The position numbers and the translations under genes are program-made. From Flavobacteriales bacterium (GTDB lineage: Bacteria > Bacteroidota > Bacteroidia > Flavobacteriales_F > PHOS-HE28), in the NCBI GenBank assembly GCA_016719225.1, contig JADKAN010000004.1, positions 512,167 to 576,166 on the forward strand: a stretch of 64,000 nucleotides of DNA. The letters are read 5' to 3'. This document shows, one piece after another, positions 2,391-16,880 of the stretch. Position 1 is the stretch's first letter. Every line of letters begins with the position of its first letter. Below the pieces are notes generated by a model, which saw nothing but the letters and a program-made list of their open reading frames with translations, did not search any database and was not told the origin of the DNA.

Positions 2391-3596
2391 CTAGGGGCCT
2401 TTACTCAATAGGTTGCGGAGCGCTATTACGTGATCTTCGAGCATAGAGTTCCATCCAAGATCTTTTCGTGCCCTCTCCCGGCTAGCATCGCGCATGGATC
2501 CCCATGCTTGACGGTCGGAAAGAAGCTTTCCGATACGAGCAGCCATACCTAGTGCATCATCCGCCAGCATGATCTCCACGTCAGACATCAGATCGAGTCC
2601 TTCAACACCTATGGAAGTCGTGGCGCAAGGTAATCCCCGATACAACGCGGTGATCACCTTTACCTTCGTTCCACTTCCGAAACGCAGGGGCGCAATGAAG
2701 ACTTTGCTCTTCCGGTAGAACGGCTCCAAGTCATCCACGAAGCCACGCAGAACGGCTCCCGGTGAACGCTTCACCGCTAATTGCAATGATTCGTCCGCAC
2801 CGCGGCCGATAATGTCCATTGTCAATTCCGGATACTTTTTTTTCAGGATGGGCCAAACATCGTTCAGGAACCAGATCAACCCATCCGCATTGGCAGGCCA
2901 GCTTAAAGTGCCGACGTAGAGCAAGTTGTTCAGCGCCTCATCAAAACGCAGGACCGGCGCATCCAGTCCGCTGTCGTCGCCCAAATGGTAGGTGGTGTGG
3001 AATTTACTCTTTGGCACTCCTGCCTTTACCAGTTCCTCTTGATCGTTCGGGGCAGCAAGGACCAGATCCGCTCGTTCGCAGGACTTTACCTCGAAATGTT
3101 TCACACGCCGCGACTCGATCTCCAGCACGATCCGCTCAGGCAGGTTCTTTGCGACTGTCCGCGAGCGTTCCCACATAACGAACTCTGCGTTATGCTGGTG
3201 AAGTATGACAGGCACCTTGACGTTTTTCGGCACGTAAGGGAAGACCTCCAAATGGTCGACCAGCACGAGGTCAGCTTTTCCGATGGCCTCTTCTGCCGCC
3301 CGGTGCAATTCCACGTCCGCATTGCGGTAAACGTTCAACGTGGGGGAAGAGACCATACTCTTCAGGAAGTTCAATGCCGTCCGTGGGCGCTCCACCGGTA
3401 AGGCGTGCACCGCTGACAATGGTAATGCACGCTTGAATGCATCCAAATGCTTCACATCGTCACCTTTCAACGGTGCGATCAACGTCACATCGAAATGCTG
3501 GGCCAAATGCTGAATGAACCGCCATGACTTTATTACGCCCCCGCTTTGTGGTGGGTATGGCAATTGGTTGGTTATGAAAACCAAACGATCCCTCAT
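2391..3596 (-). CDS. Glycosyltransferase family 4 (GT-B fold)
   Basis: 401 aa. The C-terminal half carries the GT4 EX7E-like region (KVFIAPLRFGSGTKVKVITALYRGLPCATTSIGVEGL). It sits in the operon with wza/wzc. Confidence 0.8.
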   Translation of the reverse strand: MRDRLVFITNQLPYPPQSGGVIKSWRFIQHLAQHFDVTLIAPLKGDDVKHLDAFKRALPLSAVHALPVERPRTALNFLKSMVSSPTLNVYRNADVELHRAAEEAIGKADLVLVDHLEVFPYVPKNVKVPVILHQHNAEFVMWERSRTVAKNLPERIVLEIESRRVKHFEVKSCERADLVLAAPNDQEELVKAGVPKSKFHTTYHLGDDSGLDAPVLRFDEALNNLLYVGTLSWPANADGLIWFLNDVWPILKKKYPELTMDIIGRGADESLQLAVKRSPGAVLRGFVDDLEPFYRKSKVFIAPLRFGSGTKVKVITALYRGLPCATTSIGVEGLDLMSDVEIMLADDALGMAARIGKLLSDRQAWGSMRDASRERARKDLGWNSMLEDHVIALRNLLSKGP

Positions 3597-3602
3597 GGTC
3601 TA

Positions 3603-5873
3603 TCAGACAGCACGATTCCAGTTGTAGCGGAAAAAGTCGAAGAACCCCAACCGCTTTTCCCCTTTTTTCTTTGCCAGACCGAACCACGGCAGCGGTTTGT
3701 CCATGATGCCGTCCAGCACGAACATGAGCGGCGGAAGCTGGCCATTGGCGCGCGACATGCCCAATTTCTCAAGGTCGCCTTTGGATGTGGTGCCCGGCTG
3801 GCAAACCACCAGCGCACGGTCGAGCGAGGCCACTTGCGGAGTAATGGCCAGTGCGTCACCGTTAGAGCCTTCGATGATCACGAAGGCAGTGCCCTCCTCC
3901 TGTGCCCGTGATCGGATCGCGCTCAGGGAGATCCCCTTGGCAGCGATAATAGAAAGACCAGCGGGTGCGCCAGTTTGGCGCGGGGTAGCTTCAGTCTCCT
4001 GCACCAGCATTACGCGACTGCCACGCTGTGCCAACATCCAGGCCAAACGGGCCGCAGTGGCTCCTACTGCCTCTTTCCCTCCAGCACCGCAGACCATATC
4101 GAGCTCGGGGCCGGTGGTGTGTGCAGTCTCTATAAGTGCAGCCAGCTTGGCAATTTCCACATAGGCGGGACTGGCCGGATTGGTCAACAGCCCACCCGGA
4201 TCCTTGTGTGTCGTATAGGGTATGCGAGCGGCGAGCGGAACGTCCGGCATAGCCTTCGCCAAGGTCGAAGCACCGGTTATCTTATCACTGAACAAGGACT
4301 TAATAATGAGGTACCCCAAAGGTGCCAACAGCGCCAACATCACCGCAACCGCCAGCAGGATCACTATGTCGGGGAAGAACGGGTCCATGTCCGTTATATA
4401 AGCCGGTGTGGTCACGTAGACCTCCGGTGCAAGCGCCGCGAACTGAACACGCAGGTTGCTCAAGCGCGTCAGAAGATCGGTGTTCACGGCTTCCTGTGTG
4501 CGCTGGTCGCGTTCCCTGTCGGTCAAGGTCCTGTCCAGTTTGGGTATTTCCCCCTGCTGGGCCATTAAGGTCCTTCGTTGCAAGTCCACATTGTCCAGGC
4601 TGATCCGGGTGTTGGCCTTGAAGCTTTCCACCGAGCTCAGGATGTTCTCCCGTTGCTGGTCCAACAGCCGTACCATCCGGTTGAAGCTGGGATTAGCGGT
4701 CTTGCCCTCCTCTCGAAGCACGGAAATGTCGCTCTGTAATGCTGCGTATTTCGTGGTCATATCGTTGAGCAGGGGATCAGAAATGCCGTAAGCTTTGGGA
4801 CTGGATGGCTTGGCACTGTCCCCGCTGCGCAGCAGCTTCACCAAATTGTCGTAATAATTGGTCTGGACCACCAACGATTCGCGCTGGGCGTCCAATGACT
4901 TCAAACCTTCCTGAAGCAAAATGGTGGCATGTTCCATGTTGGTGACATTGGCCTCCGTCTTGAACTTTTCAAGCAGATCGCTCGTGGAATTGAGCTGGCC
5001 GGTGTTGCGGGTGATCTCACCTTCCAACATGGTAATGGTCTTGGCCAGTTCGGTCTTCTGCTCTTCCATATGCAGTGAAGTGTACTCTTCACCGATGCCG
5101 TTCAAAATGTCCAACACCTTGGGCTTTGGCGCTGCTGTGAGCGTAACGTTCACCGTTGTGGCCTCCGCTACGGTCAGTTCCCCGAGGATCGAGCCCATTA
5201 ACCCCAGCGTAACGCCGTGTGGGTCGTACAGGATGAAGCCGTAATTCTCCACGTCATCGCCTTCCAAAGGCAATTTGCTTTTCATCACCCTGGTGATGCG
5301 CACGCGGGCGCTATCCAGCTTGATCCATTCACCGAATTTGCCGTCCTGCTCCAGCTCGATCTCAAGATCGTCCGGACCGTATTTGCCGTCCCCCACAAGC
5401 TTGAAATTGTCTCCTTGCACATCATGCAGGTAAAATCCTACGCCATAGGGTACATGCACCACATTGTGCACGGATGAGGTATCGAGTTCGACTTGGATCG
5501 GTGTATCCTTATAGACCTCCCAATCCAGGAAAAAACCTTCCTGCACGTACTTATTACGCAGACCGAGCCGATCCACCACACGGCTGATAATGGGCTCTGA
5601 CGTGATGCGCAATTGTTCGTTGGAGTAGTAGTTCTTATCGGTTTTTGCCACGGGCTGCGTGGGTTGCACCATGCGGTTCGGGTCGTCGTGCCGCATGGGT
5701 GTAGCGATCAAAATGCTGGTGCTGCCTGAATACATGGGCTGCACGATGATCATGATCACCACCACAAGTGCCAGCAAGGCCAAGCCCGCTATACCCAGAA
5801 GTGGCCATGCACGCAGGTACTTTCCGAGGAAGGCCTTCAGGTCCGTGTCCTCATTCAAGTTCGTTCCGGTCAT
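3603..5873 (-). CDS. Polysaccharide co-polymerase / chain-length determinant (Wzc/GumC-like, PCP-2) with a degenerate C-terminal ATPase/kinase domain
   Basis: 756 aa. N-terminal TM segment, a Wzz-like periplasmic region, long coiled-coil, a second TM segment, and a C-terminal P-loop-like region (VCGAGGKEAVGATAARLA) with no Ser/Thr after the Lys and no C-terminal Tyr cluster. Confidence 0.75.
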   Translation of the reverse strand: MTGTNLNEDTDLKAFLGKYLRAWPLLGIAGLALLALVVVIMIIVQPMYSGSTSILIATPMRHDDPNRMVQPTQPVAKTDKNYYSNEQLRITSEPIISRVVDRLGLRNKYVQEGFFLDWEVYKDTPIQVELDTSSVHNVVHVPYGVGFYLHDVQGDNFKLVGDGKYGPDDLEIELEQDGKFGEWIKLDSARVRITRVMKSKLPLEGDDVENYGFILYDPHGVTLGLMGSILGELTVAEATTVNVTLTAAPKPKVLDILNGIGEEYTSLHMEEQKTELAKTITMLEGEITRNTGQLNSTSDLLEKFKTEANVTNMEHATILLQEGLKSLDAQRESLVVQTNYYDNLVKLLRSGDSAKPSSPKAYGISDPLLNDMTTKYAALQSDISVLREEGKTANPSFNRMVRLLDQQRENILSSVESFKANTRISLDNVDLQRRTLMAQQGEIPKLDRTLTDRERDQRTQEAVNTDLLTRLSNLRVQFAALAPEVYVTTPAYITDMDPFFPDIVILLAVAVMLALLAPLGYLIIKSLFSDKITGASTLAKAMPDVPLAARIPYTTHKDPGGLLTNPASPAYVEIAKLAALIETAHTTGPELDMVCGAGGKEAVGATAARLAWMLAQRGSRVMLVQETEATPRQTGAPAGLSIIAAKGISLSAIRSRAQEEGTAFVIIEGSNGDALAITPQVASLDRALVVCQPGTTSKGDLEKLGMSRANGQLPPLMFVLDGIMDKPLPWFGLAKKKGEKRLGFFDFFRYNWNRAV

Positions 5874-5882
5874 TCGCTGGGG

Positions 5883-6767
5883 CTATTTTTTCAACACGGC
5901 GTAAACACTCACGATCGAAACCAAGAAGGTCAGCACATTGACGACCAGGTTCGGATCCCTGCCTGAGTACATCCGTCTCTTTAGCGGGTCAACGATCACC
6001 ACGTCGTTCGGCTCCAAGTAGAAGTGGGGATCCGCCAGAACGTTCTGATCGTTGAGGTCCATGTTGTACAGATGGTTGGTGCCGTCCCGTGAGCGCATGA
6101 CGCGGATGCGCGAGCGGTCCGCAAGCACAGTTAGATCACTGGCCATGGCCAGTCCTTCAAGCACGTTCACTTGGTTGTTATACACCGGGTATCGTCCCGG
6201 GCGGTTCACTTCACCCACCACCGATATGTTGAAGTTGAGCATGACCACCTTCACCGAGGCGTCCGAATATAATCCATTGGCCAAAGACAAGATCGCCGCT
6301 TCCGCTTCCGGGATGGTCATTCCCTCCACTTTGACCGGTCCTATCTCGGGCAGTGTGATGTTCCCCTGCGGATCAACAGTATGGCCGATCAGGTAGGGGT
6401 GCTGCACCGAGCGGTAGAGGTCCATGTCCTGCAAGGTGGTCTGCGGCACGATGTCCTGCACGAGTTGCGAGTGGCCCACGGTGACCATGAGAATGTCATC
6501 CTTGTGGATGGAGAATGTCGGCGGTTGGGGTGGCCAGGTCTTATCCACAAGAGCGTCCCATGGGACCCGCGCATCCTTATCCTGCAGCAGCACGACCTTC
6601 TTGTTGCCCACGCAACCGCCGAGCAAAGCAGCTGCCAAGACCAAGCCCAGCATCGCCGGAAATTTCGGGATGACACTCCCGCATACCTTGCCAAAGGCTG
6701 ACCAGTATGGCCAAAAACCCTTCATTCGCTTCGATGTCAGTAAATTCCGGTTCCTGCTATGCAACAT
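5883..6767 (-). CDS. Polysaccharide export outer-membrane lipoprotein Wza (BexD/CtrA family, SLBB domains)
   Basis: 294 aa. Lipoprotein-like N-terminus (MLGLVLAAALLGGC), a poly_export region (DILMVTVGHSQL...) and SLBB-like repeats. The true start may be an internal Met (MKGFW.. or MLGLV..). It is divergent from the plus-strand operon. Confidence 0.8.
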   Translation of the reverse strand: MLHSRNRNLLTSKRMKGFWPYWSAFGKVCGSVIPKFPAMLGLVLAAALLGGCVGNKKVVLLQDKDARVPWDALVDKTWPPQPPTFSIHKDDILMVTVGHSQLVQDIVPQTTLQDMDLYRSVQHPYLIGHTVDPQGNITLPEIGPVKVEGMTIPEAEAAILSLANGLYSDASVKVVMLNFNISVVGEVNRPGRYPVYNNQVNVLEGLAMASDLTVLADRSRIRVMRSRDGTNHLYNMDLNDQNVLADPHFYLEPNDVVIVDPLKRRMYSGRDPNLVVNVLTFLVSIVSVYAVLKK

Positions 6768-6902: not shown

Positions 6903-8279
6903 ATGGCGAGATACGAACGCTACATCTACCTCTTTCTGGAATTGATAGCGCTGGCCGGGGCTTTTGCCTTGGCAGTGCTCATCACCTATGGTGACCTTGA
7001 TTTCTTGGAGAGGCCCCTGCTCAGGCTTCTTTTCGGCTGTATGGCCTTGATCTGGGTGATCATTTCCCTCATCGGGGCCTTCCGGCCCATGGACCGCCGA
7101 CTGAGCGGCGGGGCGCTCATACAAGATCTGGTCACCTCCGTAGTGACGGCGCTCTTCGGCACATTCGCCGTCAGCTTCATGGTGGGGATCGAAGGACTTC
7201 CCCCGCAGCTACTGGGGTGGCACTTCCTCTTCTTCACCGCATTGGTGGCCCTGGTCCGTTTTGCCGTGTGGAAAGGAATCCGTGCCTATCGCACTGCCGG
7301 TTATAATTTCAAGCGTATCGTGATCATTGGCTCGAATTCGGTGAGCGAGCGCTTCATCCGCGAGATGGAGGAACACCCTGAATACGGTTACAAGGTGGTG
7401 GAGCGCTTCAACTTAGGCCATGATGATCCTTTACCGGGCGCCAGGCCTATCGAGGAATTCGATCTTTTCGTGGCTACCAACCGGATCGATCAAGTGTACA
7501 TAGCAAAGGACCGCATGAGCAAGAAGGCCTTGGCCATCATACGCTTCTGCTCCCTGAAGGATGTCCGTGTGTTGTTCATCAACAACATGTTCGACCAATT
7601 GCACCGATCCGGGTTCCGTGCTTACTTGGATGAAGGAGGCATGACCACGCTGGTGGCCATCGACCCGGTGAAGTATAAGAACGTGATCGGGCGTTCGATG
7701 AAGCGGATCTTCGATATCGTCTTCAGTTCCATGGTGATCCTGCTGATCCTTTCCTGGCTGTATCCCATCATCGCCATCCTGGTGAAAATGAGCTCTCCCG
7801 GGCCGGTACTTTTCATCCAGCAGCGCACAGGCATCGTGAACAAGCCTTTTGGCTGTATGAAGTTCCGATCCATGCGTCCGAATGTCGACTCTGATAAAAA
7901 GCAGGCCGTGAAAGGAGATCCCCGCATCACACCGATCGGCCATTTCCTGCGCAAGAGCAATTTGGATGAGATGCCCCAATTCTTCAACGTTTTCCTGGGA
8001 CAGATGAGCGTTGTCGGACCGCGTCCGCACATGGTTTCACATACCGAGGAGTACACCAAATTGATCGGACCTTATATGGAACGGCTTTGGCTGAAACCGG
8101 GCATCACCGGTCTGGCCCAAGCAAAGGGCCTCCGCGGGGAGACCAATGAACTGGTCTTGATGGAGCGTCGCGTCCAAGCTGACCGCTTCTACATCCAGCA
8201 TTGGTCCATCACGCTGGATATCTACATTATCCTGCTCACCTTCTGGAACATGGTTTCCATGAAAAAACAAGGCGCGTGA
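6903..8279 (+). CDS. Undecaprenyl-phosphate hexose-1-phosphate transferase (WbaP/EpsL-type bacterial sugar transferase), the initiating enzyme
   Basis: 458 aa with N-terminal TM helices and a C-terminal bacterial sugar transferase domain (KRIFDIVFSSMVILLILSWLYPIIAILVKMSSPGPVLFIQQRTG...FGCMKFRSMR...DPRITPIGHFLRKSNLDEMPQFFNVFLGQMSVVGPRPH). Confidence 0.9.
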   Translation: MARYERYIYLFLELIALAGAFALAVLITYGDLDFLERPLLRLLFGCMALIWVIISLIGAFRPMDRRLSGGALIQDLVTSVVTALFGTFAVSFMVGIEGLPPQLLGWHFLFFTALVALVRFAVWKGIRAYRTAGYNFKRIVIIGSNSVSERFIREMEEHPEYGYKVVERFNLGHDDPLPGARPIEEFDLFVATNRIDQVYIAKDRMSKKALAIIRFCSLKDVRVLFINNMFDQLHRSGFRAYLDEGGMTTLVAIDPVKYKNVIGRSMKRIFDIVFSSMVILLILSWLYPIIAILVKMSSPGPVLFIQQRTGIVNKPFGCMKFRSMRPNVDSDKKQAVKGDPRITPIGHFLRKSNLDEMPQFFNVFLGQMSVVGPRPHMVSHTEEYTKLIGPYMERLWLKPGITGLAQAKGLRGETNELVLMERRVQADRFYIQHWSITLDIYIILLTFWNMVSMKKQGA

Positions 8280-9640
8280 AACTTCGTAAGCTCCTCAATA
8301 AGTTACCGGTCAAGAAAGGACAGCGCGAGCTGGTTGGCGGCGGGGTGGTAGCATTCGCATACCGCATCCTCGGCCTTCTTTTCACCTACGGTCTCATGCT
8401 TGCCATCGCGCGGCGCTTCGGCCCGGAAGGCAATGGGTATTATAACCTGTACACCGCGTGGATGGCCGTGATGGGCGTGCTCGCGACCTTGGGCCTTAGC
8501 AGTTCCAATGTGCGTTCCGTTGCGGAATACGGTGCGAAGGGCGAATGGGGGCGGCTAAGGCCTTTGCACAATGGAGTGCTGCGCGCCGTCCTCCCCTTCT
8601 CGGTGGCTCTAGGGCTGTTATTCCTGGGTTGGCGTGAATTGGCCCTACGCGGTATCATGGGGGACGGCGGTATCGCGCCCGGCGTGATGATCGCCATGGC
8701 GTTAGGTCTTCCATTCAGTGCGTTGTTGTTGGTGAACGTGGAGTTCATCAGGGGTACGAAACGCGTGGCCGTTTCGGAGTTATTGCGCTCACCCGCCGTA
8801 CTGGGCTTTACGTTGCTTGTGGTGCTTTTGGTCCCAGGTGACGCCATGACGCCAGTGGTGGTCACCGCGTGTGTAACAGCCGTCTTCGCTTTGGTGGGAT
8901 TCTACCTCGTGCGACGTTACGTGTCCATGATCGAGGCCAAGCATCAAGCGAAGCCGCTCACTATCAATATGCGTGAGCACATGGCCTTGGCGTTGCCGAT
9001 GATCGTAACGGCGTTGAGCAGTAGTTTGAATGGCCGTTTGGACACCATCATGCTGGCTTGGTACCGATCGTCGGACATCATCGGCATCTACGGCACAGCC
9101 GTGAAGATCTCCATCGGCATCGAGTTCGTTATCGGTGCCATTAAGACCATCGCCATGCCCAAGATCGCGGAGATGTATCACGCGGGCAAGCATGAAGAGC
9201 TACGGGATACGTTGGATTATGCTGCCAAACTGGTATTCTGGACCACAGCTCCTATTTCCGTTGTGCTCATCGTCTTTGCCGGGCCGATCATGGGCTTCGT
9301 TGGCCCTGAGTTCACGGCGGGTGCCACTGTGCTGCGCATCATGACCATCGCGCACTTCATCTCCGCCAGTTCGGGTATGGTGGGTGCTTTCCTCAACATG
9401 ACGGGTGGTCAATTGGCCTTCAGTCGCATCGTGGTGGTCTCGGTGGTGCTGAATCTCGTGCTGAATTTCCTGATGATCCCTCCTTTCGGTATGCTCGGTG
9501 CAGCCCTGGCTTCTGGCATCACGCTCAGCCTTTGGAATATTGCCGCTGCCATCCTGATCTATCGCAAGCACGGCATCAACATGTATTACATCCCTTGGCT
9601 TACCAAGCACCGCACGGAGTATGTTGAGATCGACAAGTGA
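8276..9640 (+). CDS. Wzx-type polysaccharide flippase (MOP/MATE-like superfamily)
   Basis: About 455 aa polytopic membrane protein. A GTG start at 8276 overlaps the upstream stop as GTGA; the track ORF from 8201 is an upstream extension. Architecture is typical of an O-unit flippase (about 12 TM). Confidence 0.75.
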   Translation: MKLRKLLNKLPVKKGQRELVGGGVVAFAYRILGLLFTYGLMLAIARRFGPEGNGYYNLYTAWMAVMGVLATLGLSSSNVRSVAEYGAKGEWGRLRPLHNGVLRAVLPFSVALGLLFLGWRELALRGIMGDGGIAPGVMIAMALGLPFSALLLVNVEFIRGTKRVAVSELLRSPAVLGFTLLVVLLVPGDAMTPVVVTACVTAVFALVGFYLVRRYVSMIEAKHQAKPLTINMREHMALALPMIVTALSSSLNGRLDTIMLAWYRSSDIIGIYGTAVKISIGIEFVIGAIKTIAMPKIAEMYHAGKHEELRDTLDYAAKLVFWTTAPISVVLIVFAGPIMGFVGPEFTAGATVLRIMTIAHFISASSGMVGAFLNMTGGQLAFSRIVVVSVVLNLVLNFLMIPPFGMLGAALASGITLSLWNIAAAILIYRKHGINMYYIPWLTKHRTEYVEIDK

Positions 9641-10547
9641 GACCACGACACGCTTGCCGGACCTCATGCTGGTAGGCGCAGCGAAGAGCGGCACTACTTC
9701 GATAGCGCACCAGTTCACCCGGCATCCAAGGGTTTTTCTGCCCATGAACAAGAAGGAACCGCACTTCTTCTCGTTCAATGAAGAGCCGCCGCCTTACACC
9801 GATAAAGCGTTCGTGCGCACCTTGGTATGGAAGCTTAAAGACTACGTGGCCCTCTATGTCTCAGCGCCTCCGAATGCCCGGATAGCCGATTGTTCGACCT
9901 CCTATCTTTATCGGCATCATACAGCCGTGCCGCATATCCTACGCACATATGGCTCCAGAGCTGTGGAACTTAATATGAGCGCCATTTTGCGCGACCCAGT
10001 TGAGCGTGCTTATTCCCATTGGCTTTACTTGGTGCGTAACGGACATGAGGACCTTTCCTTCGAAGAAGCGATCGCTCCCGCGACCGTGGAACGCAGAAAG
10101 AAGGAGCGTTGGGGCTTTGATTATTTGGGCTATGGGCTTTATGCTGAAGCAGTTGGGAATTTCACGTCCGCCTTTCCTTCTTTTAAAGTTTACTTACTGG
10201 AGGATCTGAAGGACCTGCAGGGAACGTTCGACGACATTTGCGACCGGGCCGGCCTTGAGCACTTTGAAGTGGAAAAAGTGCAATCGAACCCCGGCGGAAT
10301 TCCCAAGAGCCGCTGGCTGGTGCGCACCATCCGCCGAAACCCGATCGTCCGCTCCTTTAGCCATATGCTGCCTTCCGGCATGCGCAACTCGGTACGCGCC
10401 AAGCGGGATGGCATGTTAAAGCAGGCGCTGGACAGACCCGAAATGCCAAGGGCCGCGCGCGATATACTGAACGCTTATTACCGTGCAGACGTGGAGCGTC
10501 TTTCTGCTACAATCGGGCGTGACCTTGGCCATTGGTGTTCCAAATGA
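9621..10547 (+). CDS. Sulfotransferase (PAPS-dependent, Sulfotransfer_1/3-like) - ST1
   Basis: 5'-phosphosulfate-binding loop LMLVGAAKSGTTS near the N-terminus and a 3'-phosphate-binding motif ILRDPVERAYSHW. 308 aa. Overlaps the wzx end by 20 nt. Confidence 0.8.
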   Translation: MLRSTSETTTRLPDLMLVGAAKSGTTSIAHQFTRHPRVFLPMNKKEPHFFSFNEEPPPYTDKAFVRTLVWKLKDYVALYVSAPPNARIADCSTSYLYRHHTAVPHILRTYGSRAVELNMSAILRDPVERAYSHWLYLVRNGHEDLSFEEAIAPATVERRKKERWGFDYLGYGLYAEAVGNFTSAFPSFKVYLLEDLKDLQGTFDDICDRAGLEHFEVEKVQSNPGGIPKSRWLVRTIRRNPIVRSFSHMLPSGMRNSVRAKRDGMLKQALDRPEMPRAARDILNAYYRADVERLSATIGRDLGHWCSK

Positions 10548-11464
10548 GCGAGCTCAATCTGCCTAAATGCCTGTTCGTAGGCACCGCTAAGGCCGGGACC
10601 ACCACCATCGAACATGCATTAAAGGCCCATCCAGGAGTCGGTATTCCGCGGAAGGAAACGTTTTTCTTCGACCACGAACTCATGGGCAATGGGCGGTTGC
10701 CATATCCCAAACAGCGGGACACGGATACCATCGTGAAGTCGGAAGCGGAATACCGCGGCCTCTATTCCGGTGCGGCACTGGTAGGTAAGACCGCTGTGGA
10801 GATCGGCACCGGCTACCTCTACCATCATGCAGTGGCCATCCCGAAGATCAAGGACCTTTTGGGTGCGGATACCCGGATAGGCATCGTACTGCGCGATCCG
10901 GTGGAACGCGCATGGTCCTCTTACATGCACTTCGTGAAGGACACGCACGAAACCCTGGGCTTCCGGGAATCCATTGCCGCAGAACCTCTGCGCACTGCCG
11001 AGAATTGGGATTTCATGTGGCACCACATCGCCATGGGGCGCTACGCTGACCAAGTGGCGGCGTATGTCAAGGCTTTCCCGAACACCCGCGTATTTATTTT
11101 CGAAGATCTACGTGCTGACGCCGATGGCTTTATGCGCGGGGTGTTCGATCTGGTGGGCGTGCCCCCTGTGGACCTGCCACCCGTAAAAGCGCAGAATCCT
11201 TCAGGCCAACCGAAATATCGGGGCCTTCAGCGACTGATAACTACGGATAATCCTATCAAAGGCCTGTTACGCCCATTAGTGCGCATGTTGGTTCCTGAGG
11301 AGCGCAGGCGCAAGGCAAGGAAGTTCGTGAAAGAGAAGAATCTCACCACGTCCGGGGGGCTTCAACCCGAGGACCGCACTTGGCTTAGGGATATTTACCA
11401 TGAGGATGTAAAGCGGCTTTCCGTAACCTTGGGCCAAGATCTGTTCGTGAAATGGCGCTGGTAA
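10544..11464 (+). CDS. Sulfotransferase (PAPS-dependent) - ST2
   Basis: CLFVGTAKAGTTT loop and VLRDPVERAWSSY motif. ATG at 10544 overlaps the ST1 stop as ATGA. Paralogous to ST1 but divergent. Confidence 0.8.
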   Translation: MSELNLPKCLFVGTAKAGTTTIEHALKAHPGVGIPRKETFFFDHELMGNGRLPYPKQRDTDTIVKSEAEYRGLYSGAALVGKTAVEIGTGYLYHHAVAIPKIKDLLGADTRIGIVLRDPVERAWSSYMHFVKDTHETLGFRESIAAEPLRTAENWDFMWHHIAMGRYADQVAAYVKAFPNTRVFIFEDLRADADGFMRGVFDLVGVPPVDLPPVKAQNPSGQPKYRGLQRLITTDNPIKGLLRPLVRMLVPEERRRKARKFVKEKNLTTSGGLQPEDRTWLRDIYHEDVKRLSVTLGQDLFVKWRW

Positions 11465-12795
11465 GCCCCTCTTCTTCCACGGCTTCTGAAAAGCAGTTGC
11501 CTTGGCCCTTCCGCTACAAGGGATTGTCCTTGGGCATTCTCACGTTCATGGTGACCATTGTTTGGCGTGTGCTCACGGTGAGCCACTTCACCTTGGTGAT
11601 CGGTACCATAGAAGTGGCCCTGTTCGCATTGCTCATGGTTTGGGTTGTATGGCGGCTGGTCCAACGGTGGATGGCGGATGATTGGGGCATCAATGGTTTT
11701 GAGATCTACGTCCTTCTCCTGATCATTCTGCCGTTGGGTTCAGCCTTCGGCGCCCGGAAAGAGTTTGGCCAGCCGTTGATCTGGGGCATCATCGCTTTCA
11801 AGGATTATTACCTATTGCTCGGCGTACTTGCGGTATATCATTGGTTGCGCATGGGATGGGTCACCCTGAAGCAGTTGGAAAAGGCCATGCTTATCATGTC
11901 TTGGATCTGCTTGATCTATTTCTACTTCGCAACACTCTTCATAAACCCCGCACCGTATCAGGACACGCCACTCGCCGGGGCTAACGAAGTAAAAGGCGGT
12001 GGGGTGTATTACCGCTTCAACATGGCCGCCATGTATTTCGGTGCCATCTATTACTCTGCACGTGCATTCAAACGCGAAACGTGGTTCGATCTCTTCTACG
12101 CAATGCTCTTCGCAGCGTACGTCGTGATCTTCCGGCTGGATCGCACCTCCATGGCAGTTACCGCTTTAGGCATGGCGGGAGTGGTTCTTTTCCATGTTCC
12201 CCTGAAGCGTATCGTGCGGGCGATGATGGTGGTACTGATCCCATTGATCTTCGGCGTGGTATTGATCTTCCTGCTTGCTCCCAGCAAGGTGAAGCAGTAC
12301 GAGGACATGTTCACAGACGCCATCCATACGGTGATGGGCACTTCAGGCGGAGAAGCCGAAGTGGGTGTTCGCACTTTGGAGATCGCTATCGCGGACCGCC
12401 AGGTGGCCAAGCACCCTTGGTTGGGCAACGGGCGGATCAGCCACACTTGGAATGAGACCGGATATGAACAGTGGCTCGGCTTCTTTTTCCCGGCGGACGT
12501 GGGAATGTTGGGTCTAACATTCATTTATGGATATCCAGGAATGGTGTTCCTCTACCTCCTCTTCGCCGTAGCCGCCATTTACATGCTCCGCGTAAAGGGG
12601 CGTAACGATGACCTGTTCTTCATCACTTGCCAGTTCCTCCTATTGGCGTTGTTCCTGGATTCGCTCACCAACGGCCAATTGACGCAGAACCCTGGCCAAG
12701 CCTTGCTGCTCATGGGTGTGATGCACTATTACTCGCGGATCAGCCCTGCAGTAGTGCAACAAGGGGCGCTGCTTTCCGCACCGGCCTTGGCCTGA
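11452..12795 (+). CDS. Wzy-type polysaccharide polymerase / O-antigen ligase-like membrane protein
   Basis: 447 aa, more than 10 predicted TM helices, a large loop before the last helices. Sits between the sulfotransferases and beside wzx. The family call rests on context and topology only. Confidence 0.55.
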   Translation: MALVSPSSSTASEKQLPWPFRYKGLSLGILTFMVTIVWRVLTVSHFTLVIGTIEVALFALLMVWVVWRLVQRWMADDWGINGFEIYVLLLIILPLGSAFGARKEFGQPLIWGIIAFKDYYLLLGVLAVYHWLRMGWVTLKQLEKAMLIMSWICLIYFYFATLFINPAPYQDTPLAGANEVKGGGVYYRFNMAAMYFGAIYYSARAFKRETWFDLFYAMLFAAYVVIFRLDRTSMAVTALGMAGVVLFHVPLKRIVRAMMVVLIPLIFGVVLIFLLAPSKVKQYEDMFTDAIHTVMGTSGGEAEVGVRTLEIAIADRQVAKHPWLGNGRISHTWNETGYEQWLGFFFPADVGMLGLTFIYGYPGMVFLYLLFAVAAIYMLRVKGRNDDLFFITCQFLLLALFLDSLTNGQLTQNPGQALLLMGVMHYYSRISPAVVQQGALLSAPALA

Positions 12796-13533
12796 TCAAC
12801 GCAGGTAGAGCCAGAAGATCTTGCGAAGTACGTTCAAGCCACGGTAGACGGGCATGGCCGACGCAGGCATCTTTATGTGGTCCCAGGTAGGAGGGAACGT
12901 GTAGCCGAACTCCTCCATGTACGGGCCGAACACGAATTTAGCTCGCCGCTTCGATGCATCAGTGTCGAAGTATTCCGTGAAATGCTTGCCCTCCTTGGCC
13001 GTCTTGTTGCCTACAGGCAGCGGACGGGTCTGTTCCACGCCAAGCTTTCTCAGGGCATCGGCAAAATCCTCTTGGAGGTTTTCGTAGCGCACAACCTTAT
13101 CGAACTTTTTGTGGTCCAAAATGCTCCAACTGGCGTAAGGGATCTTGTGGTTGCGCATGAACCAAGTAGAGAACGATTGGTTCTTTCCAATGATCTCCGA
13201 ATGGCTCCGTTTGTTCCACCAAAGCATGATGTGCTTGCGCAGGAAACCGTGTTGGATCTTGTTCGCCTCCGCGTTGCTGTAGCGGTCCTCATGGTCGCTG
13301 CGCACCTTGAAATAAGTGCTCACGGTGATGTCCATCGGGTTGCGCAGGCCGGAGATCACGCGGTACTTTTTCTGCTCGGCGTCAGCCGCTTTCATATAGT
13401 CCGTGCGATACAGCGCATGCTTGAAGCAGAACTCTCGGGCTTCGTACTGGTCCGTCAGCTCGCGTGAAATGGCGGTACTGGCTGTTTGTGGGAGGTTCAC
13501 AAAGACGAACCGGTGCTTGTCGCTTATGACCAT
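12796..13533 (-). CDS. Sulfotransferase family protein (Sulfotransfer_2/3-like, a different family from ST1/2/4/5) - ST3
   Basis: 245 aa. N-terminal FVFVNLPQTASTAIS resembles the family-2 PKxGST PAPS loop, and GLRNPMDITVSTYFK resembles the RxPxxRxxS 3'-phosphate motif. Opposite strand to its neighbours. Confidence 0.55.
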   Translation of the reverse strand: MVISDKHRFVFVNLPQTASTAISRELTDQYEAREFCFKHALYRTDYMKAADAEQKKYRVISGLRNPMDITVSTYFKVRSDHEDRYSNAEANKIQHGFLRKHIMLWWNKRSHSEIIGKNQSFSTWFMRNHKIPYASWSILDHKKFDKVVRYENLQEDFADALRKLGVEQTRPLPVGNKTAKEGKHFTEYFDTDASKRRAKFVFGPYMEEFGYTFPPTWDHIKMPASAMPVYRGLNVLRKIFWLYLR

Positions 13534-13988
13534 GTGTGCGTTTTGGAGGCGAATAGTTGCTGTTGCGGAAATGCTTTTCGGCCCCGAAGTAAGGCCTTAT
13601 AGGAATGAATACCGGCTTTTGACCATGCTTCATCCCGATATTTGTATCGGCGTCCTTCAACGCGACACCTGACCAGATGGTTCTCCAACGCACCTTGCCT
13701 TTCCATTTCCGTTGGCTTTTTGCCGGACCTGGAAGTAAGGATCGTGCTTCAGGGCTCGGCCCGAGCGACTGGAGTTCCGGACCACTGACAGAAGTGGAAC
13801 CCGGACGTCCCAGCGGAGTCACCTCAAGATCCAAATTCGTGCGACTGAAGGACAGGTCAGTGGTTGAAGCTGAAGTTACCTTACGAAACAATGGGACGTT
13901 GATCCCCGTAGAAAAAACCTTGTATGCCATTCACCAGTTCACGTTGCCGCTATCCGCTCATGCTATGTCCCATAAGGGCACCTAAGCG

Positions 13989-15026
13989 TTGCCGGCGATC
14001 CGCCATTATCATCAGTGCATGACCAACGCCCGGCACATGCCGCACAATCGGACCGACAAAGCTGAGTTCTGCCCTGATTTCCTCGTCGTTGGCGTGGTAA
14101 AAGGAGGCACTACCGCACTCTACAACCTGCTGGACCGCCATCCCGGCATTCATTTGCCACCGATAAAGGAGACCAATCATTTTTCGCGGGGTGACATGCG
14201 ACCTGCGGATTTTGCCCGCGAGTATGCGCTGGATGTACGCATGGACCCTGCGAAGTACATCCGGGACGGGATGAACGAAGTGGTACACATAGCGCATGTG
14301 GACGACTCCTCGGACTATGCGGCGCTTTTCAGCAAGGCCACTCCCGGACAAGTGCTGGGCGAGGTCTGTCCTTCATACGCCATATGCCCTTCCGCCGCTG
14401 CGGCCATCCATACTGCTAGGCCATCCGCACAAATTTTCTTCATGCTTCGCGATCCGGTGCAACGTGCCTGGTCGCAGTACATCATGAACCTGCGTGAGGG
14501 GAAAACCCTTGAAAAGGATTTCCTGAAAGAAGTGGAACGCGATGCCAAGCAGGCCAAGACCGGCTGGGGCGTGAACCACCAGTACTTGGCACTGGGCATG
14601 TATGCGGAACAGGTGGAACGTTACTTGCAACTGTTCCCCAAGGAACAGGTACATGTGCTTTTGCATGAGCGGTTCAAGAAGGATCCTGCGGCCACAATGG
14701 CCCAGGTTTTCGCTGCTATCGGCGTTGAACCCTTGGTGGACATGGACACCTCCGGAAAGTTCAACGAAGCCGCTGTACCGCGCAATGCCGTGCTGAACCG
14801 ACTGCTGGTGCGCAGCGGAGCTATCAGCGCAATTAAGGCCCTAGTACCCCGCGATCTTCGTGGCGGTTTCAAGGAGATGCTCTATTCCAAAAAGGACATG
14901 CCCACGCTGCCCAAGGATCAGGCATCAGCGCTATGGGAAACATATGCGCCGGATGTTGACCGGCTTTCACAATTGATCGGTATGGACCTGCGCCAATGGT
15001 GGGGGGTGAAGAAAGCAAAGGCATGA
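13989..15026 (+). CDS. Sulfotransferase (PAPS-dependent) - ST4
   Basis: FLVVGVVKGGTTAL loop and MLRDPVQRAWSQY motif. 345 aa; the true start may be an internal Met (for example near 14019). Confidence 0.8.
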   Translation: MPAIRHYHQCMTNARHMPHNRTDKAEFCPDFLVVGVVKGGTTALYNLLDRHPGIHLPPIKETNHFSRGDMRPADFAREYALDVRMDPAKYIRDGMNEVVHIAHVDDSSDYAALFSKATPGQVLGEVCPSYAICPSAAAAIHTARPSAQIFFMLRDPVQRAWSQYIMNLREGKTLEKDFLKEVERDAKQAKTGWGVNHQYLALGMYAEQVERYLQLFPKEQVHVLLHERFKKDPAATMAQVFAAIGVEPLVDMDTSGKFNEAAVPRNAVLNRLLVRSGAISAIKALVPRDLRGGFKEMLYSKKDMPTLPKDQASALWETYAPDVDRLSQLIGMDLRQWWGVKKAKA

Positions 15027-16042
15027 ATACAGGTATCGGACACGTTTTCGTGGTTGGGAATTCGCGCAGCGGCACTACCATGATGTTGCGGGTGATGAAC
15101 AACCATTCGCAGGTTCATGGGATCAATGAGCCGCATTTCTATGGTACCTACTGGGCTCCTGCGGATGATGGGAAACCACTGCCGGAGGCTGATGCAAAGG
15201 AGTTATTCATCAAGCTCATCACGCGCCAACGCGATGGTTTCTTCGCCGAGGTGACTCCCGGCAAGTTCGATGCTGAGGTGCAACGCATGTATGATGAACT
15301 GCCGGCCGGTGCCGATCGCAAGGACGTCTATGCTGGTTTCATGGCCTATGAAACGAAGCTGAACGGGAAGAACATAGCCTGCGAGAAAACGCCCCAGAAC
15401 ATTTTCTACATTGACGAGATCCAAAGGCATTTCCCGGGCGCCAAGACCATCGTTATGTTCCGCGATCCCCGCGCCGTGCTGCTGTCGCAAAAGCGGAAAT
15501 GGATGCGCAAGGACCTTGGCATGACCGGTATGCCCGACTCGGAAGTGCGCCGCCTGAGGATGAATTATCATCCGTTCACCATTTCGCGCCTGTGGAATTC
15601 CAGTTTCGATGCGGCCAAGCGTCACAAAGGGAACCCTGACGTGGTAGAAGTCCGTTTCGAGGACCTCACCGGCGACCCTGAAGGCACCATGCGCCGCATA
15701 TGCACCGCCGTAGGTATTCCATTCGAGCCTGCTATGCTGCAAGTGCCACACGCGGGCAGCTCGAGCGCGATGGACGACCCCACTAAAAAGGGGATCCGTA
15801 CCGATAGAGGCAATAGTTGGAAGAAAGGATTGGACGATACCGAAATTGCCATTTGCCAAAGCACGTGTGGCACGCGCATGGCACAACTGGGTTATGGCTA
15901 CGCGGACGTTTCCCCGAGCGCATTGAGCCTTGCCGCTGCTTGGGCCAGCTTTCCCTTCAAACTCGTTGGCGCGTTCGCGCTTAATCTGGGGCGCATGCGC
16001 AACATGGTGAACACACTTCAACGCAGACTGAAACAGGCTTGA
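15023..16042 (+). CDS. Sulfotransferase (PAPS-dependent) - ST5
   Basis: VFVVGNSRSGTTMM loop and MFRDPRAVLLSQK motif. ATG at 15023 overlaps the ST4 stop as ATGA. Confidence 0.75.
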   Translation: MNTGIGHVFVVGNSRSGTTMMLRVMNNHSQVHGINEPHFYGTYWAPADDGKPLPEADAKELFIKLITRQRDGFFAEVTPGKFDAEVQRMYDELPAGADRKDVYAGFMAYETKLNGKNIACEKTPQNIFYIDEIQRHFPGAKTIVMFRDPRAVLLSQKRKWMRKDLGMTGMPDSEVRRLRMNYHPFTISRLWNSSFDAAKRHKGNPDVVEVRFEDLTGDPEGTMRRICTAVGIPFEPAMLQVPHAGSSSAMDDPTKKGIRTDRGNSWKKGLDDTEIAICQSTCGTRMAQLGYGYADVSPSALSLAAAWASFPFKLVGAFALNLGRMRNMVNTLQRRLKQA

Positions 16043-16818
16043 TGAAGCGCGTGAAGCTTTTCGGCCTACCGTTCATAGCCGCCGAGAATCACGATGGCGT
16101 GGTGTCGGAAGTGCTGGCTTGGCCGTTGGAAAAGGAGGAACCGCAGGAGCTGCCGTTGTTGAGCACGCCCAATGTGGACCAAGTGGTGAAGCTCCATCGC
16201 CACGAACATGCGGGTTTGCTTGCTCAGATCGCGAACGCGCGTTTTGTCCTTCCCGACGGGCAACCCATCGTATGGGTGAGCAAACGGAAAAAAGGCAGCG
16301 AACTCCCGGCCCGGCTGGCAGGCAGTGATCTGTTCCCTGCGGTTTGGAATAAGCTCGCCACGAGGAAAGCGCCGATATTCATGGTGCTGGCCAACGATGC
16401 GATCGGGGAAGCGTTGCGGAAAGAGAATCCGGAGATGCACTGGTTGACACCGCCCTTCTATTCCATATCCGACCCCGGAGCGGAAGAACAGGTCGTGACC
16501 TCTGTATTCAATGAGCTCATGGCGCGGCCGGTACCCTTGGTTTTCTTGGGCCTGGGCTTTCCGAAGCAGGAACGTTTGGCACTTGCCTTGATCGAAAGAC
16601 TGAAGACCGCTGCGGTGCCGATGCCATTGTTCCTTTTGCTGGGCGCGTCGTTCGAGTTCCATGCAGGATTGAAGAAGCGTGCCCCCAAGATCTTCCAAAA
16701 GCTCGGCCTCGAATTCTTCCATCGCTTCCTTTCCGAGCCTAAGCGCATGTTCCGCCGCTACTTCGTGGATGACATGGTCTTCTTCAAGCTGGCCCTAAAG
16801 GAACTGCGCGCTTCTTGA
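16039..16818 (+). CDS. WecB/TagA/CpsF family glycosyltransferase (GT26; UDP-ManNAc(A)/GlcNAc-type transferase to the lipid-linked acceptor)
   Basis: 259 aa. Motifs TPNVDQVVK...FVLPDGQPIVWVSK match the GT26 TPNPE...DG.GVVW pattern. ATGA overlap with ST5. Confidence 0.75.
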   Translation: MMKRVKLFGLPFIAAENHDGVVSEVLAWPLEKEEPQELPLLSTPNVDQVVKLHRHEHAGLLAQIANARFVLPDGQPIVWVSKRKKGSELPARLAGSDLFPAVWNKLATRKAPIFMVLANDAIGEALRKENPEMHWLTPPFYSISDPGAEEQVVTSVFNELMARPVPLVFLGLGFPKQERLALALIERLKTAAVPMPLFLLLGASFEFHAGLKKRAPKIFQKLGLEFFHRFLSEPKRMFRRYFVDDMVFFKLALKELRAS

Positions 16819-16880
16819 TCCCGGACACGTCCTTCTATCTTTGTCCATAGCCATGCGCCCAATGCGCTGGCGGAATTTCC

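What the first reader, a model, noticed from the sequence alone, without database searches (positions are those of the whole stretch)
9621..16042. The sulfotransferase set is diverse: two translationally coupled pairs plus a divergent, differently oriented family member
ST1/ST2 and ST4/ST5 are arranged as ATGA-overlapping pairs, but the proteins are strongly diverged from each other, with only the PAPS motifs clearly shared by eye. ST3 sits on the opposite strand with a different motif style. This pattern suggests several regio-specific sulfation steps rather than recent duplication of one enzyme.
Basis: partly seen in the sequence, partly recalled or inferred. Interest (0 to 1): 0.55.

Follow-up and report, generated by a model that had tools for sequence, protein, structure and literature searches.

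The report
Five-sulfotransferase sulfated polysaccharide gene cluster
An uncultured Flavobacteriales bacterium, whose closest relatives come from activated sludge, carries a capsule or slime gene cluster with five anciently diverged sulfate-adding enzymes and its own sulfate-donor pathway, so it probably makes a very densely sulfated sugar polymer.

Summary
Five ORFs (ST1 9621-10547+, ST2 10544-11464+, ST3 12796-13533-, ST4 14019-15026+, ST5 15023-16042+) are sulfotransferase-like, and both ATGA overlaps exist.

Two details need correcting. ST1, ST2 and ST4 are full-length paralogues (27-35% identity, E 1e-24 to 1e-44), not alike only at the PAPS motifs. ATGA overlaps are this genome's habit: four more occur between unrelated genes, and every junction in the operon overlaps.

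The set spans three lineages:
- ST1/2/4 resemble heparan-sulfate 3-O-sulfotransferases and PDB 3RNL.
- ST5 is Sulfotransfer_3 type, with an R-S-G-T-T loop.
- ST3 is Sulfotransfer_2-like.

Each gene has a 1:1 orthologue in 12 species-level Flavobacteriales MAGs, with dN/dS of 0.03-0.06, so the duplications are old.

The genes sit in a Wzx/Wzy polysaccharide locus with only three glycosyltransferase-type genes. cysC-cysD-cysN (PAPS synthesis) lies just beyond the window's left edge, which is a published hallmark of sulfated-polysaccharide clusters.

ST3 belongs to a subfamily that never has the canonical PAPS-loop lysine. Its inversion is lineage-specific.

Regio-specific sulfation is plausible but untested. 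This is a new member of a known kind, of moderate interest.

The parts
1..985 (-). Unknown 344-aa protein gene, cut by the window edge. It lies directly downstream of the MBOAT gene, and cysC-cysD-cysN follow it outside the window.
   Evidence: L013 11400-12434 on the same contig (window coordinate = 12385 - L013 coordinate). No Pfam or NCBIfam hit.
993..2384 (-). MBOAT-family membrane O-acyltransferase (likely polysaccharide O-acylation).
   Evidence: PF03062, E 1.6e-22.
2391..3596 (-). GT4-type glycosyltransferase.
   Evidence: PF13692, E 2.4e-21.
3603..5873 (-). Polysaccharide co-polymerase, a Wzc-like chain-length determinant. No clear kinase P-loop.
   Evidence: Weak NCBIfam Wzc and chain-length-determinant hits. 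The orthologue in L010 has a weak GNVR hit.
5883..6767 (-). Outer-membrane polysaccharide export protein (Wza/OPX).
   Evidence: PF02563 plus SLBB.
6903..8279 (+). Initiating phosphoglycosyl transferase (WbaP-like, Bac_transf).
   Evidence: PF02397, E 1e-60.
8276..9640 (+). Wzx flippase. The GTG start overlaps the PGT stop (GTGA).
   Evidence: PF01943, E 1e-18. 454-aa gene call in L005. Junction read.
9621..10547 (+). ST1, a 3RNL / HS 3-OST-like sulfotransferase. PSB loop GAAKSGTT at residue 19, base motif KEPHFF at 45, 3'-PB motif RDPVERAYS at 124.
10544..11464 (+). ST2, a paralogue of ST1 (35% identity). GTAKAGTT, KETFFF, RDPVERAWS. ATGA overlap with ST1.
11452..12795 (+). Wzy-like polymerase. 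It is not a sulfotransferase. Its stop abuts the ST3 stop (TGATCA).
   Evidence: PF04932, 23.6 bits, below the gathering cut-off. Junction read.
12796..13533 (-). ST3, a 245-aa Sulfotransfer_2-like enzyme. PSB loop P-Q-T-A-S-T with no Lys or Arg, invariant K38-H39, 3'-PB motif RNPMDITVS at 64.
13534..14018 (.). Divergent spacer between ST3 and ST4, presumed to hold the promoters. It contains a conserved block with the palindrome CCGATA-TTTG-TATCGG at about 13630-13645.
14019..15026 (+). ST4, the third member of the ST1/ST2 subfamily. GVVKGGTT, KETNHF, RDPVQRAWS. The longest ORF starts at 13989.
15023..16042 (+). ST5, Sulfotransfer_3 type. GNSRSGTT, NEPHFY, RDPRAVLLS. ATGA overlap with ST4.
16042..16818 (+). 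WecG/TagA/CpsF-family (GT26) glycosyltransferase and the last gene of the operon. TGATG overlap with ST5.
   Evidence: PF03808, E 1.6e-34. Junction. TATCTTTG motif at 16836-16843, just before deoC.

Best explanation
The span is the core of a roughly 23-kb Wzx/Wzy-dependent capsule or exopolysaccharide locus. The host is an uncultured Flavobacteriales bacterium (contig JBATNX010000079.1).

Locus content. It encodes an initiating phosphoglycosyl transferase and only two further glycosyltransferases (GT4 and WecG/GT26). It also encodes Wzx, Wzy, a co-polymerase, Wza and an MBOAT acyltransferase. A dedicated PAPS pathway (cysC-cysD-cysN) lies just outside the window, and there are five cytoplasmic PAPS-dependent sulfotransferases.

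Proposed mechanism (inferred). CysDN and CysC make PAPS. The five STs have no signal peptides, and several have amphipathic or aromatic C-terminal tails. They sulfate different hydroxyls (or amines) of the short undecaprenyl-PP-linked repeat unit at the cytoplasmic face. Wzx then flips the unit, Wzy polymerises it and the PCP/OPX pair exports it. The product would be an unusually densely sulfated, O-acylated polymer, with up to 5 sulfates on a roughly 3-sugar repeat.

What is shown:
- The gene identities.
- The three enzyme lineages: Glu-base HS3ST/3RNL-like ST1/2/4, R-S-G-type ST5, and His-base Sulfotransfer_2-like ST3.
- The ancient divergence, purifying selection and conserved synteny.

What is inferred: the acceptor, the regiospecificity, the stoichiometry and the order of steps.
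For: - ST identities: Pfam hits; PDB 3RNL at E 1e-31 to 1e-38 plus HS 3-OST/NST hits for ST1/2/4; CurM-ST, TPST and NoeE-like hits for ST5.
- ST3: model pLDDT 88, and all top-50 Foldseek PDB hits are PAPS sulfotransferases.
- Motifs: PSB, base and 3'-PB motifs are intact and conserved in orthologues.
- PAPS supply: cysC, cysD and cysN are above NCBIfam cut-offs in the same operon as MBOAT/GT4. PAPS genes together with STs in a polysaccharide cluster are a published hallmark of sulfated polysaccharide synthesis (PMC11641403). In synechan, modification enzymes act on the lipid-linked unit in the cytoplasm (PMC8205485).
- Conservation: an identical 5-ST architecture in 12 species-level genomes, 1:1 orthologue clades and dN/dS 0.03-0.06.
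- Wider context: ST3 homologues elsewhere sit in Wzx/PGT/GT clusters with 2-6 STs. 55 of 61 loci have at least 2 STs and 26 of 61 at least 5.
Against: - No chemistry exists: the organism is uncultured and no polymer is known.
- ST3 lacks the PSB Lys/Arg that reviews treat as defining (PMC11625862), so its activity is uncertain.
- ST2 has Phe where ST1 has the His of the K-E-x-H-F-F motif.
- ST1 is below the Pfam gathering scores.
- Wzy is below its gathering score.
- Additional glycosyltransferases could be encoded elsewhere, so the 5:3 ST:GT ratio may overstate sulfate density.
- No promoter motif was found for ST3 or ST4.
Confidence: 0.7

Rival explanations
1. Only some of the five are active polysaccharide sulfotransferases. 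ST3 (no PSB Lys/Arg), and perhaps ST2 or ST1, are inactive, regulatory or scaffolding paralogues, or redundant isoenzymes for one position. The polymer would then be only modestly sulfated.
For: - ST3 has Gln at the catalytic-lysine position. hhalign puts Q16 on K22 of ST1.
- Its subfamily has Q, R, H, L, F, N, M or S there and never K.
- ST1 is below Pfam cut-offs.
- In Synechocystis, deleting one of the two STs (xssE) had little phenotype.
Against: - All five are under purifying selection as strong as their housekeeping neighbours.
- All five are retained 1:1 in 12 species.
- In the ST3 family K38-H39, R64, P66 and S72 are invariant or nearly so. That pattern is typical of an active site, and K38 next to the base His could replace the loop lysine.
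Confidence: 0.17
2. The sulfotransferases, or some of them such as ST5, modify another acceptor rather than the Wzy-polymerised repeat unit. Candidates are a glycolipid or lipo-oligosaccharide (NodH/NoeE/Stf0-like), LPS, or protein tyrosine (TPST/RaxST-like).
For: ST5's nearest solved or curated relatives are CurM ST, TPSTs and NoeE, all weak (E 1e-4 to 0.2, and 29.9 bits against a cut-off of 500). KdsB and a TonB-dependent receptor lie nearby.
Against: - ST5 overlaps ST4 upstream and the WecG glycosyltransferase downstream in one transcription unit.
- That ST4-ST5-WecG block is conserved in all 12 species.
- No candidate peptide substrate or lipid-synthesis gene lies in the locus.
Confidence: 0.08
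3. The five genes are recent tandem duplicates of one enzyme, which is the alternative the first reader wished to exclude.
For: ST1, ST2 and ST4 are homologous over their full length.
Against: - Identity is only 27-35%.
- ST3 and ST5 belong to other Pfam families.
- Each gene has separate orthologue clades across species, and for ST3 and ST4 across orders.
Confidence: 0.01

Closest known systems
Synechan xss cluster of Synechocystis sp. PCC 6803 (Maeda et al. 2021, PMC8205485)
   Same: Both are Wzx/Wzy/PCP/OPX-dependent extracellular polysaccharide loci. Both carry in-cluster sulfotransferases from distinct bacterial subfamilies, thought to act on the lipid-linked repeat unit in the cytoplasm.
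   Different: - Synechan has 2 STs and 8 GTs (sulfate:sugar 2:8); here there are 5 STs and 3 GT-type genes.
- PAPS genes are in-cluster here.
- No XssQ/R/S regulators were detected in the part of the window scanned against Pfam.
- The host is Bacteroidota rather than a cyanobacterium.
- Nothing here has been tested experimentally.
Sulfated capsule clusters of marine Vibrio sp. KMM 8419 and Cobetia marina (PMC11641403, PMC11766843)
   Same: cysN/D/C and sulfotransferase genes sit together inside a polysaccharide biosynthetic cluster, which is the stated hallmark of sulfated polysaccharide synthesis.
   Different: - Those clusters are ABC-transporter-type or large mosaic loci (80 genes) with 3 dispersed STs and a solved polymer structure.
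- Here the locus is a compact Wzx/Wzy operon with 5 contiguous STs and no known structure.
Heparan-sulfate 3-O-sulfotransferases / NST domain, and the bacterial structural-genomics sulfotransferase PDB 3RNL (for ST1, ST2, ST4)
   Same: - K-x-G-T-T PSB loop.
- K-E-x-(H/F)-F motif carrying the Glu base.
- R-D-P-x-x-R-x-x-S 3'-phosphate motif.
- 3RNL aligns end to end (E 8e-31 to 1.5e-38).
   Different: - Only about 25-30% identical or less to 3RNL, and local similarity to the HS enzymes.
- Cytoplasmic bacterial proteins rather than Golgi enzymes.
- The acceptor is unknown, and 3RNL itself has no assigned function.
Sulfotransfer_2 (PF03567: HS2ST, HS6ST, chondroitin/HNK-1 STs) (for ST3)
   Same: - Profile hit above the gathering score.
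- Strand-loop-helix P-x-T-A-S-T loop.
- P-x-x-x-x-x-S 3'-PB helix.
- A His base candidate (H39).
- All top fold hits are sulfotransferases.
   Different: - The loop lysine is replaced by Gln, and the position is never Lys in 166 relatives.
- The protein is only 245 aa, with about 48 residues between the PSB and PB motifs against about 100-130 in ST1/2/4/5.
- Fold matches are weak (TM 0.3-0.38).
Sulfotransfer_3 enzymes with an R-x-G loop: NodH, NoeE, CurM ST, TPST (for ST5)
   Same: R-S-G-T-T PSB loop, a PF13469 hit at E 1.4e-30, and weak NoeE, CurM-ST and TPST similarity.
   Different: No close characterised relative: NoeE scores 29.9 bits against a cut-off of 500. The context is a Wzx/Wzy operon rather than nod, PKS or peptide systems.

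Membership tests
PAPS-dependent sulfotransferase superfamily (ST1, ST2, ST4, ST5) | 5'-PSB strand-loop-helix with a catalytic Lys or Arg | tested here: met
   GAAKSGTT, GTAKAGTT, GVVKGGTT and GNSRSGTT, conserved in orthologues.
PAPS-dependent sulfotransferase superfamily (ST1, ST2, ST4, ST5) | 3'-phosphate-binding motif with a conserved Ser on the PB helix | tested here: met
   RDPVERAYS, RDPVERAWS, RDPVQRAWS and RDPRAVLLS. R124 and P126 are invariant in family alignment A3.
PAPS-dependent sulfotransferase superfamily (ST1, ST2, ST4, ST5) | Curated profile score above threshold, or clear homology to a solved sulfotransferase | tested here: met
   ST2, ST4 and ST5 are above the PF13469/PF00685 gathering scores. 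ST1 is below them (18 bits) but matches 3RNL at E 8e-31 over its full length.
PAPS-dependent sulfotransferase superfamily (ST1, ST2, ST4, ST5) | Catalytic base (Glu in HS3ST/NST/TPST-type enzymes) | tested here: inconclusive
   K45-E46 is invariant in A3, in the K-E-x-x-F motif. Its equivalence to the HS3ST base Glu is judged from motif resemblance and my own knowledge, not from a structural superposition.
PAPS-dependent sulfotransferase superfamily (all five) | Sulfate transfer from PAPS to an acceptor | not testable with these tools
   This needs enzyme assays.
Sulfotransfer_2, PF03567 (ST3) | Profile score above the gathering cut-off | tested here: met
   26.2 bits against 22, E 1.1e-5, covering residues 2-197. 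Most precomputed hits on homologues are also PF03567.
Sulfotransfer_2, PF03567 (ST3) | Highly conserved PSB-loop lysine (or Arg) | tested here: not met
   The loop is P-Q16-T-A-S-T. The position is Q/R/H/L/F/N/M/S and never K in 166 relatives. hhalign aligns Q16 to K22 of ST1. ST3 is therefore filed as a divergent relative, not a canonical member.
Sulfotransfer_2, PF03567 (ST3) | PB-helix Ser and a His catalytic base | tested here: met
   R64, P66 and H39 are invariant, and S72 is conserved in at least 90% of sequences, across 24 relatives at 30-90% identity. The KH motif occurs in 192 of 221 relatives. The role of H39 as base is inferred.
Sulfotransfer_2, PF03567 (ST3) | Sulfotransferase alpha/beta fold | tested here: met
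Wzx/Wzy-dependent polysaccharide locus | Initiating PGT, Wzx flippase, Wzy polymerase, PCP and OPX | tested here: met
   PGT, Wzx and OPX are above gathering scores. Wzy (23.6 bits against 31.7) and PCP are weak hits only. The orthologue in L010 does have a full Wzy_C hit.
Sulfated-polysaccharide biosynthetic cluster (hallmark of PMC11641403) | PAPS-synthesis genes and sulfotransferases within one polysaccharide cluster | tested here: met
   cysC, cysD and cysN are above NCBIfam cut-offs. They lie about 1.1-3.9 kb downstream of the MBOAT gene on the same strand of the same contig.
Translationally coupled gene pairs | Start codon overlapping the upstream stop codon | tested here: met
   ATGA at both junctions. 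It is not specific to these pairs and only partly conserved, in 7/11 and 7/12 related species. Actual coupling of translation cannot be tested here.

The most novel reading that the evidence does not exclude
The locus makes a heparin-like-density sulfated, short-repeat exopolysaccharide in Flavobacteriales that are widespread in activated sludge. If so, it would supply the missing producers and enzymes for the 'sulfated glycosaminoglycan-like' polymers detected chemically in sludge EPS. In addition, ST3 would represent a mechanistically distinct sulfotransferase subfamily that dispenses with the canonical PSB-loop lysine and uses the invariant K38-H39 pair instead.
Probability: 0.25. Interest if true: 0.7.

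Novelty: new member of a known kind. Interest (0 to 1): 0.45.

Why it matters
- **Few genetically defined examples.** The genetically studied sulfated extracellular polysaccharides that the literature searches here turned up are cyanobacterial synechan and a few marine capsules. The synechan authors stated in 2021 that they knew of no other bacterial cluster with two sulfotransferases.
- **An open question in wastewater microbiology.** Sulfated GAG-like polymers are detected chemically in granular and activated sludge. Their producers and enzymes are explicitly described as unknown, and BLAST with reference enzymes mostly fails (PMC10483923 and PMC7356697).
- **A concrete candidate.** This locus is conserved in at least 12 species-level Flavobacteriales MAGs, several with activated-sludge names. 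It has 5 STs, 3 GT-type genes and its own PAPS supply.
- **Enzyme resource.** It offers a compact set of five diverged enzymes for enzymatic or heterologous synthesis of sulfated glycans.
- **An enzymology question.** The lysine-less ST3 subfamily is a modest mechanistic puzzle.

Tried and rejected
- **Locus scan with the broad ST3 alignment A1.** A narrower alignment, A2, worked.
- **NCBIfam.** No family for ST1-ST4, and only a far-sub-threshold NoeE hit for ST5.
- **PDB sequence searches for ST3.** The single sequence gave nothing. The profile gave only a marginal match (E 0.05) to the SULT7A1 3'-PB motif.
- **Promoter search.** The Bacteroidota -7 motif TANNTTTG is absent from the ST3/ST4 spacer and is not enriched in the window: 11 matches against 15.9 expected.
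- **The 104-aa ORF.** JGI calls this ORF upstream of ST3 in related contigs. Its frame is not conserved in the window, so it was rejected as a gene.
- **Sample provenance.** A literature search for the sample, assembly and run accessions found nothing. The environment was inferred from MAG isolate names only.
- **PAPS genes inside the window.** Pfam scans of 20 other window ORFs found none. They lie just outside the left edge.
- **Recent-duplication hypothesis.** Rejected.
- **ST3 orientation as functionally meaningful.** Rejected because Chitinophagales homologues are co-directional.

Full report
**1. Observation**

ORF listing and junction reads confirm five ORFs:

| Gene | Coordinates | Strand | Length |
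|---|---|---|---|
| ST1 | 9621-10547 | + | 308 aa |
| ST2 | 10544-11464 | + | 306 aa |
| ST3 | 12796-13533 | - | 245 aa |
| ST4 | 14019-15026 (longest ORF from 13989) | + | 335 aa |
| ST5 | 15023-16042 | + | 339 aa |

ATGA start/stop overlaps sit at 10544-10547 and 15023-15026. A Wzy-like polymerase gene (11452-12795) lies between ST2 and ST3.

Profile and structure-database hits:
- ST2, ST4 and ST5 are above the gathering scores for Sulfotransfer_3/_1.
- ST3 is above the gathering score for Sulfotransfer_2: 26.2 bits against 22.
- ST1 falls just below the Pfam cut-offs. It is nevertheless an unambiguous full-length homologue of the solved bacterial sulfotransferase 3RNL (E 8e-31) and a weaker one of the heparan-sulfate 3-O-sulfotransferases.

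**2. How diverged are they?**

All-against-all BLASTP gives:
- ST1-ST2 35% identity (E 4e-44), ST1-ST4 27% and ST2-ST4 28% (E 1e-24 to 1e-26), each over about 300 residues.
- ST5 matches the others only in short patches (E >= 0.002).
- ST3 matches none of them (E > 1).

So there are three lineages, not five unrelated proteins.

Motif inventory:

| Enzymes | PSB loop | Base motif | 3'-PB motif |
|---|---|---|---|
| ST1/2/4 | G-x-x-K-x-G-T-T | K-E-x-x-(H/F)-F | R-D-P-V-x-R-A-x-S |
| ST5 | G-N-S-R-S-G-T-T | N-E-P-H-F-Y | R-D-P-R-A-V-L-L-S |
| ST3 | P-Q-T-A-S-T | K38-H39 | R-N-P-M-D-I-T-V-S |

This matches the two mechanistic classes described in the polysaccharide-sulfotransferase review. One class uses a Glu base (HS3ST/NST/TPST). 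The other uses a His base (HS2ST/HS6ST/SULT) (PMC11625862).

**3. Old or recent duplication?**

- The window is part of NCBI contig JBATNX010000079.1, a Flavobacteriales MAG.
- In related contigs each ST has a positional 1:1 orthologue. Identity is 85-93% in L001 and 60-65% in L010, always far above any paralogue.
- A neighbour-joining tree of the ST1/2/4 family resolves three separate clades, each holding one gene per species. Chitinophagales and other Bacteroidota genes branch outside them (no bootstrap).
- NG86 dN/dS between the window and L001 is 0.026-0.063 for all five, like the neighbouring PGT, DprA and KdsB genes. dS is 0.9-1.9 and near saturation, so the ratios are approximate.
- Recent duplication is therefore excluded, and all five genes are maintained by selection.

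**4. Coupling and orientation**

- ATGA overlaps also occur at four unrelated junctions in the window: TonB-dependent receptor/KdsB, TatD/asparaginase, the two MetH parts, and histidine kinase/iPGM.
- Within the operon every junction overlaps: PGT/Wzx GTGA, Wzx/ST1 20 nt, ST1/ST2 ATGA, ST2/Wzy 13 nt, ST4/ST5 ATGA and ST5/WecG TGATG.
- Among 12 species-level relatives the exact ATGA is kept in 7/11 (ST1/ST2) and 7/12 (ST4/ST5). Most of the rest have other tight junctions (1-nt overlaps or gaps of a few bases); the remaining ST4/ST5 junctions were not resolved.
- The pairs therefore reflect a compact operon, not a special pairing.
- ST3's stop codon abuts the Wzy stop (TGATCA), leaving no intergenic base.
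- ST3's inversion is shared by the 12 Flavobacteriales genomes. In the Chitinophagales version of the locus the ST3 homologue is co-directional and overlaps the ST4 orthologue by 4 nt.

**5. Context**

On the minus strand, from the window's left edge, lie:
- an unknown 344-aa gene, cut at base 1;
- MBOAT, then GT4;
- a Wzc-like co-polymerase;
- Wza.

Divergently, on the plus strand, lie PGT, Wzx, ST1, ST2 and Wzy. ST3 follows, inverted. ST4, ST5 and a WecG/TagA GT26 enzyme complete the plus-strand set. A Bacteroidota-type TATCTTTG motif sits just before deoC (16881-17792), which follows WecG.

No PAPS genes were found among the other window ORFs scanned. Fetching the contig beyond the left edge shows adenylyl-sulfate kinase CysC, CysD and CysN directly downstream of the MBOAT/unknown pair. 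All three are above NCBIfam cut-offs.

The locus therefore meets the published hallmark of a sulfated-polysaccharide cluster (PMC11641403). It parallels the Wzx/Wzy-dependent synechan system (PMC8205485). It differs in having 5 STs to 3 glycosyltransferase-type genes, against 2 to 8 in synechan.

**6. ST3**

- Its homologues are almost all from uncultured bacteria. The family has 270 clusters (at 50% identity) at E <= 1e-30.
- The AF2 model is confident (pLDDT 88). All 50 best Foldseek PDB hits are PAPS sulfotransferases, though weakly (E >= 2.6e-3, TM 0.3-0.38).
- The loop position that carries the catalytic lysine in canonical enzymes is Gln here.
- Across 166 relatives that position is Q 59, R 51, H 28, L 13, F 7, N 4, M 3, S 1, and never K. 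A K-H pair about 22 residues later is present in 192 of 221.
- Profile-profile alignment places Q16 on K22 of ST1, and R64/S72 on R124/S132. Overall probability is low, at 12%.
- I infer that K38 substitutes for the loop lysine and that H39 is the base. Cytosolic SULTs have a comparable Lys two residues before the catalytic His (my own knowledge, not tested here).
- Because a defining feature is not met, ST3 is filed as a divergent Sulfotransfer_2-like relative whose activity is inferred.

**7. Distribution and ecology**

A scan of GTDB species representatives found 61 loci:
- 12 Flavobacteriales/Cryomorphaceae-labelled MAGs carry the identical five-ST architecture.
- 12 Chitinophagales/Bacteroidota MAGs carry a related, co-directional version, with five STs wherever the contig is long enough.
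- Limnocylindria, Zixibacteria, Gemmatimonadota, Gammaproteobacteria and others carry 1-6 STs around the ST3 homologue.
- 55 of 61 loci have at least 2 STs and 26 of 61 have at least 5.

Several MAG names follow the scheme of the Danish activated-sludge MAG study (Hirt_/Rand_18-Q3-...; PMC8012365). Others carry SlAct or STAS tags. The activated-sludge origin is an inference from names.

Sulfated GAG-like polymers are reported in sludge EPS, with producers and enzymes unknown (PMC10483923 and PMC7356697). This locus is a candidate.

**8. Verdict**

The finding is real and its core reading is right: a diverse, anciently diverged sulfotransferase set. The significance attached to the coupled pairs and to strand orientation is not supported, and regiospecificity is untested.

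The locus is a new, unusually ST-rich member of the known class of sulfated-polysaccharide gene clusters. It carries one mechanistically atypical enzyme subfamily. Interest is moderate.

Noticed in passing
Outside the window, left of base 1: L013 12490-15323 (same contig JBATNX010000079.1): cysC, cysD and cysN (the PAPS-synthesis pathway) lie immediately downstream of the MBOAT/unknown gene pair. They are part of the same locus but are cut off by the window edge.
   Followed up: yes
window 1-985 (-), continuing off the left edge; L013 11400-12434: A conserved 344-aa protein with no Pfam or NCBIfam hit sits between MBOAT and cysC. A protein of similar size (356 aa, no Pfam hit) follows MBOAT in the Chitinophagales loci (L008). 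It may be the acyltransferase's partner.
   Followed up: partly
window about 13622-13668: A roughly 40-nt block is conserved in an otherwise poorly conserved ST3/ST4 spacer (61% identity overall). It contains the perfect palindrome CCGATA-TTTG-TATCGG, about 90-130 nt upstream of ST3, and may be an operator or promoter element.
   Followed up: no
window 12793-12798: The convergent Wzy and ST3 genes end stop-to-stop (TGATCA) with no intergenic base. Read-through from the plus-strand operon would therefore be antisense to ST3.
   Followed up: no
window 3603-5873 (-): The 756-aa Wzc-like co-polymerase has no Pfam hit and only weak NCBIfam matches. Its C-terminal region (..CGAGGKEAVG..) lacks a canonical G-x4-G-K-[ST] kinase P-loop by eye.
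   Followed up: no
ST3-type family (P0001-P0221): This whole sulfotransferase subfamily (270 clusters at E <= 1e-30) never has Lys at the canonical PSB position (Q/R/H/L/F/N/M/S instead). It keeps an almost invariant K-H pair.
   Followed up: partly
window 21433-21436, 27392-27395, 34553-34556, 54328-54331: ATGA start/stop overlaps occur between functionally unrelated neighbouring genes, so 4-nt overlaps are a general habit of this genome.
   Followed up: yes
L010 6895-8328 (-): A more distant relative (ST3 63% identical) has an extra 477-aa gene with no Pfam hit inserted between ST3 and ST4. The ST3/ST4 spacer therefore appears to be a variable insertion point in the locus.
   Followed up: no
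L011 18417-20240; L049 and L073: Other multi-ST loci also carry PAPS genes nearby. L011 has ATP sulfurylase plus APS kinase. The Bacteroidota loci L049 and L073 have cysC-cysD-cysN next to a 3-4-ST variant of the cluster.
   Followed up: partly
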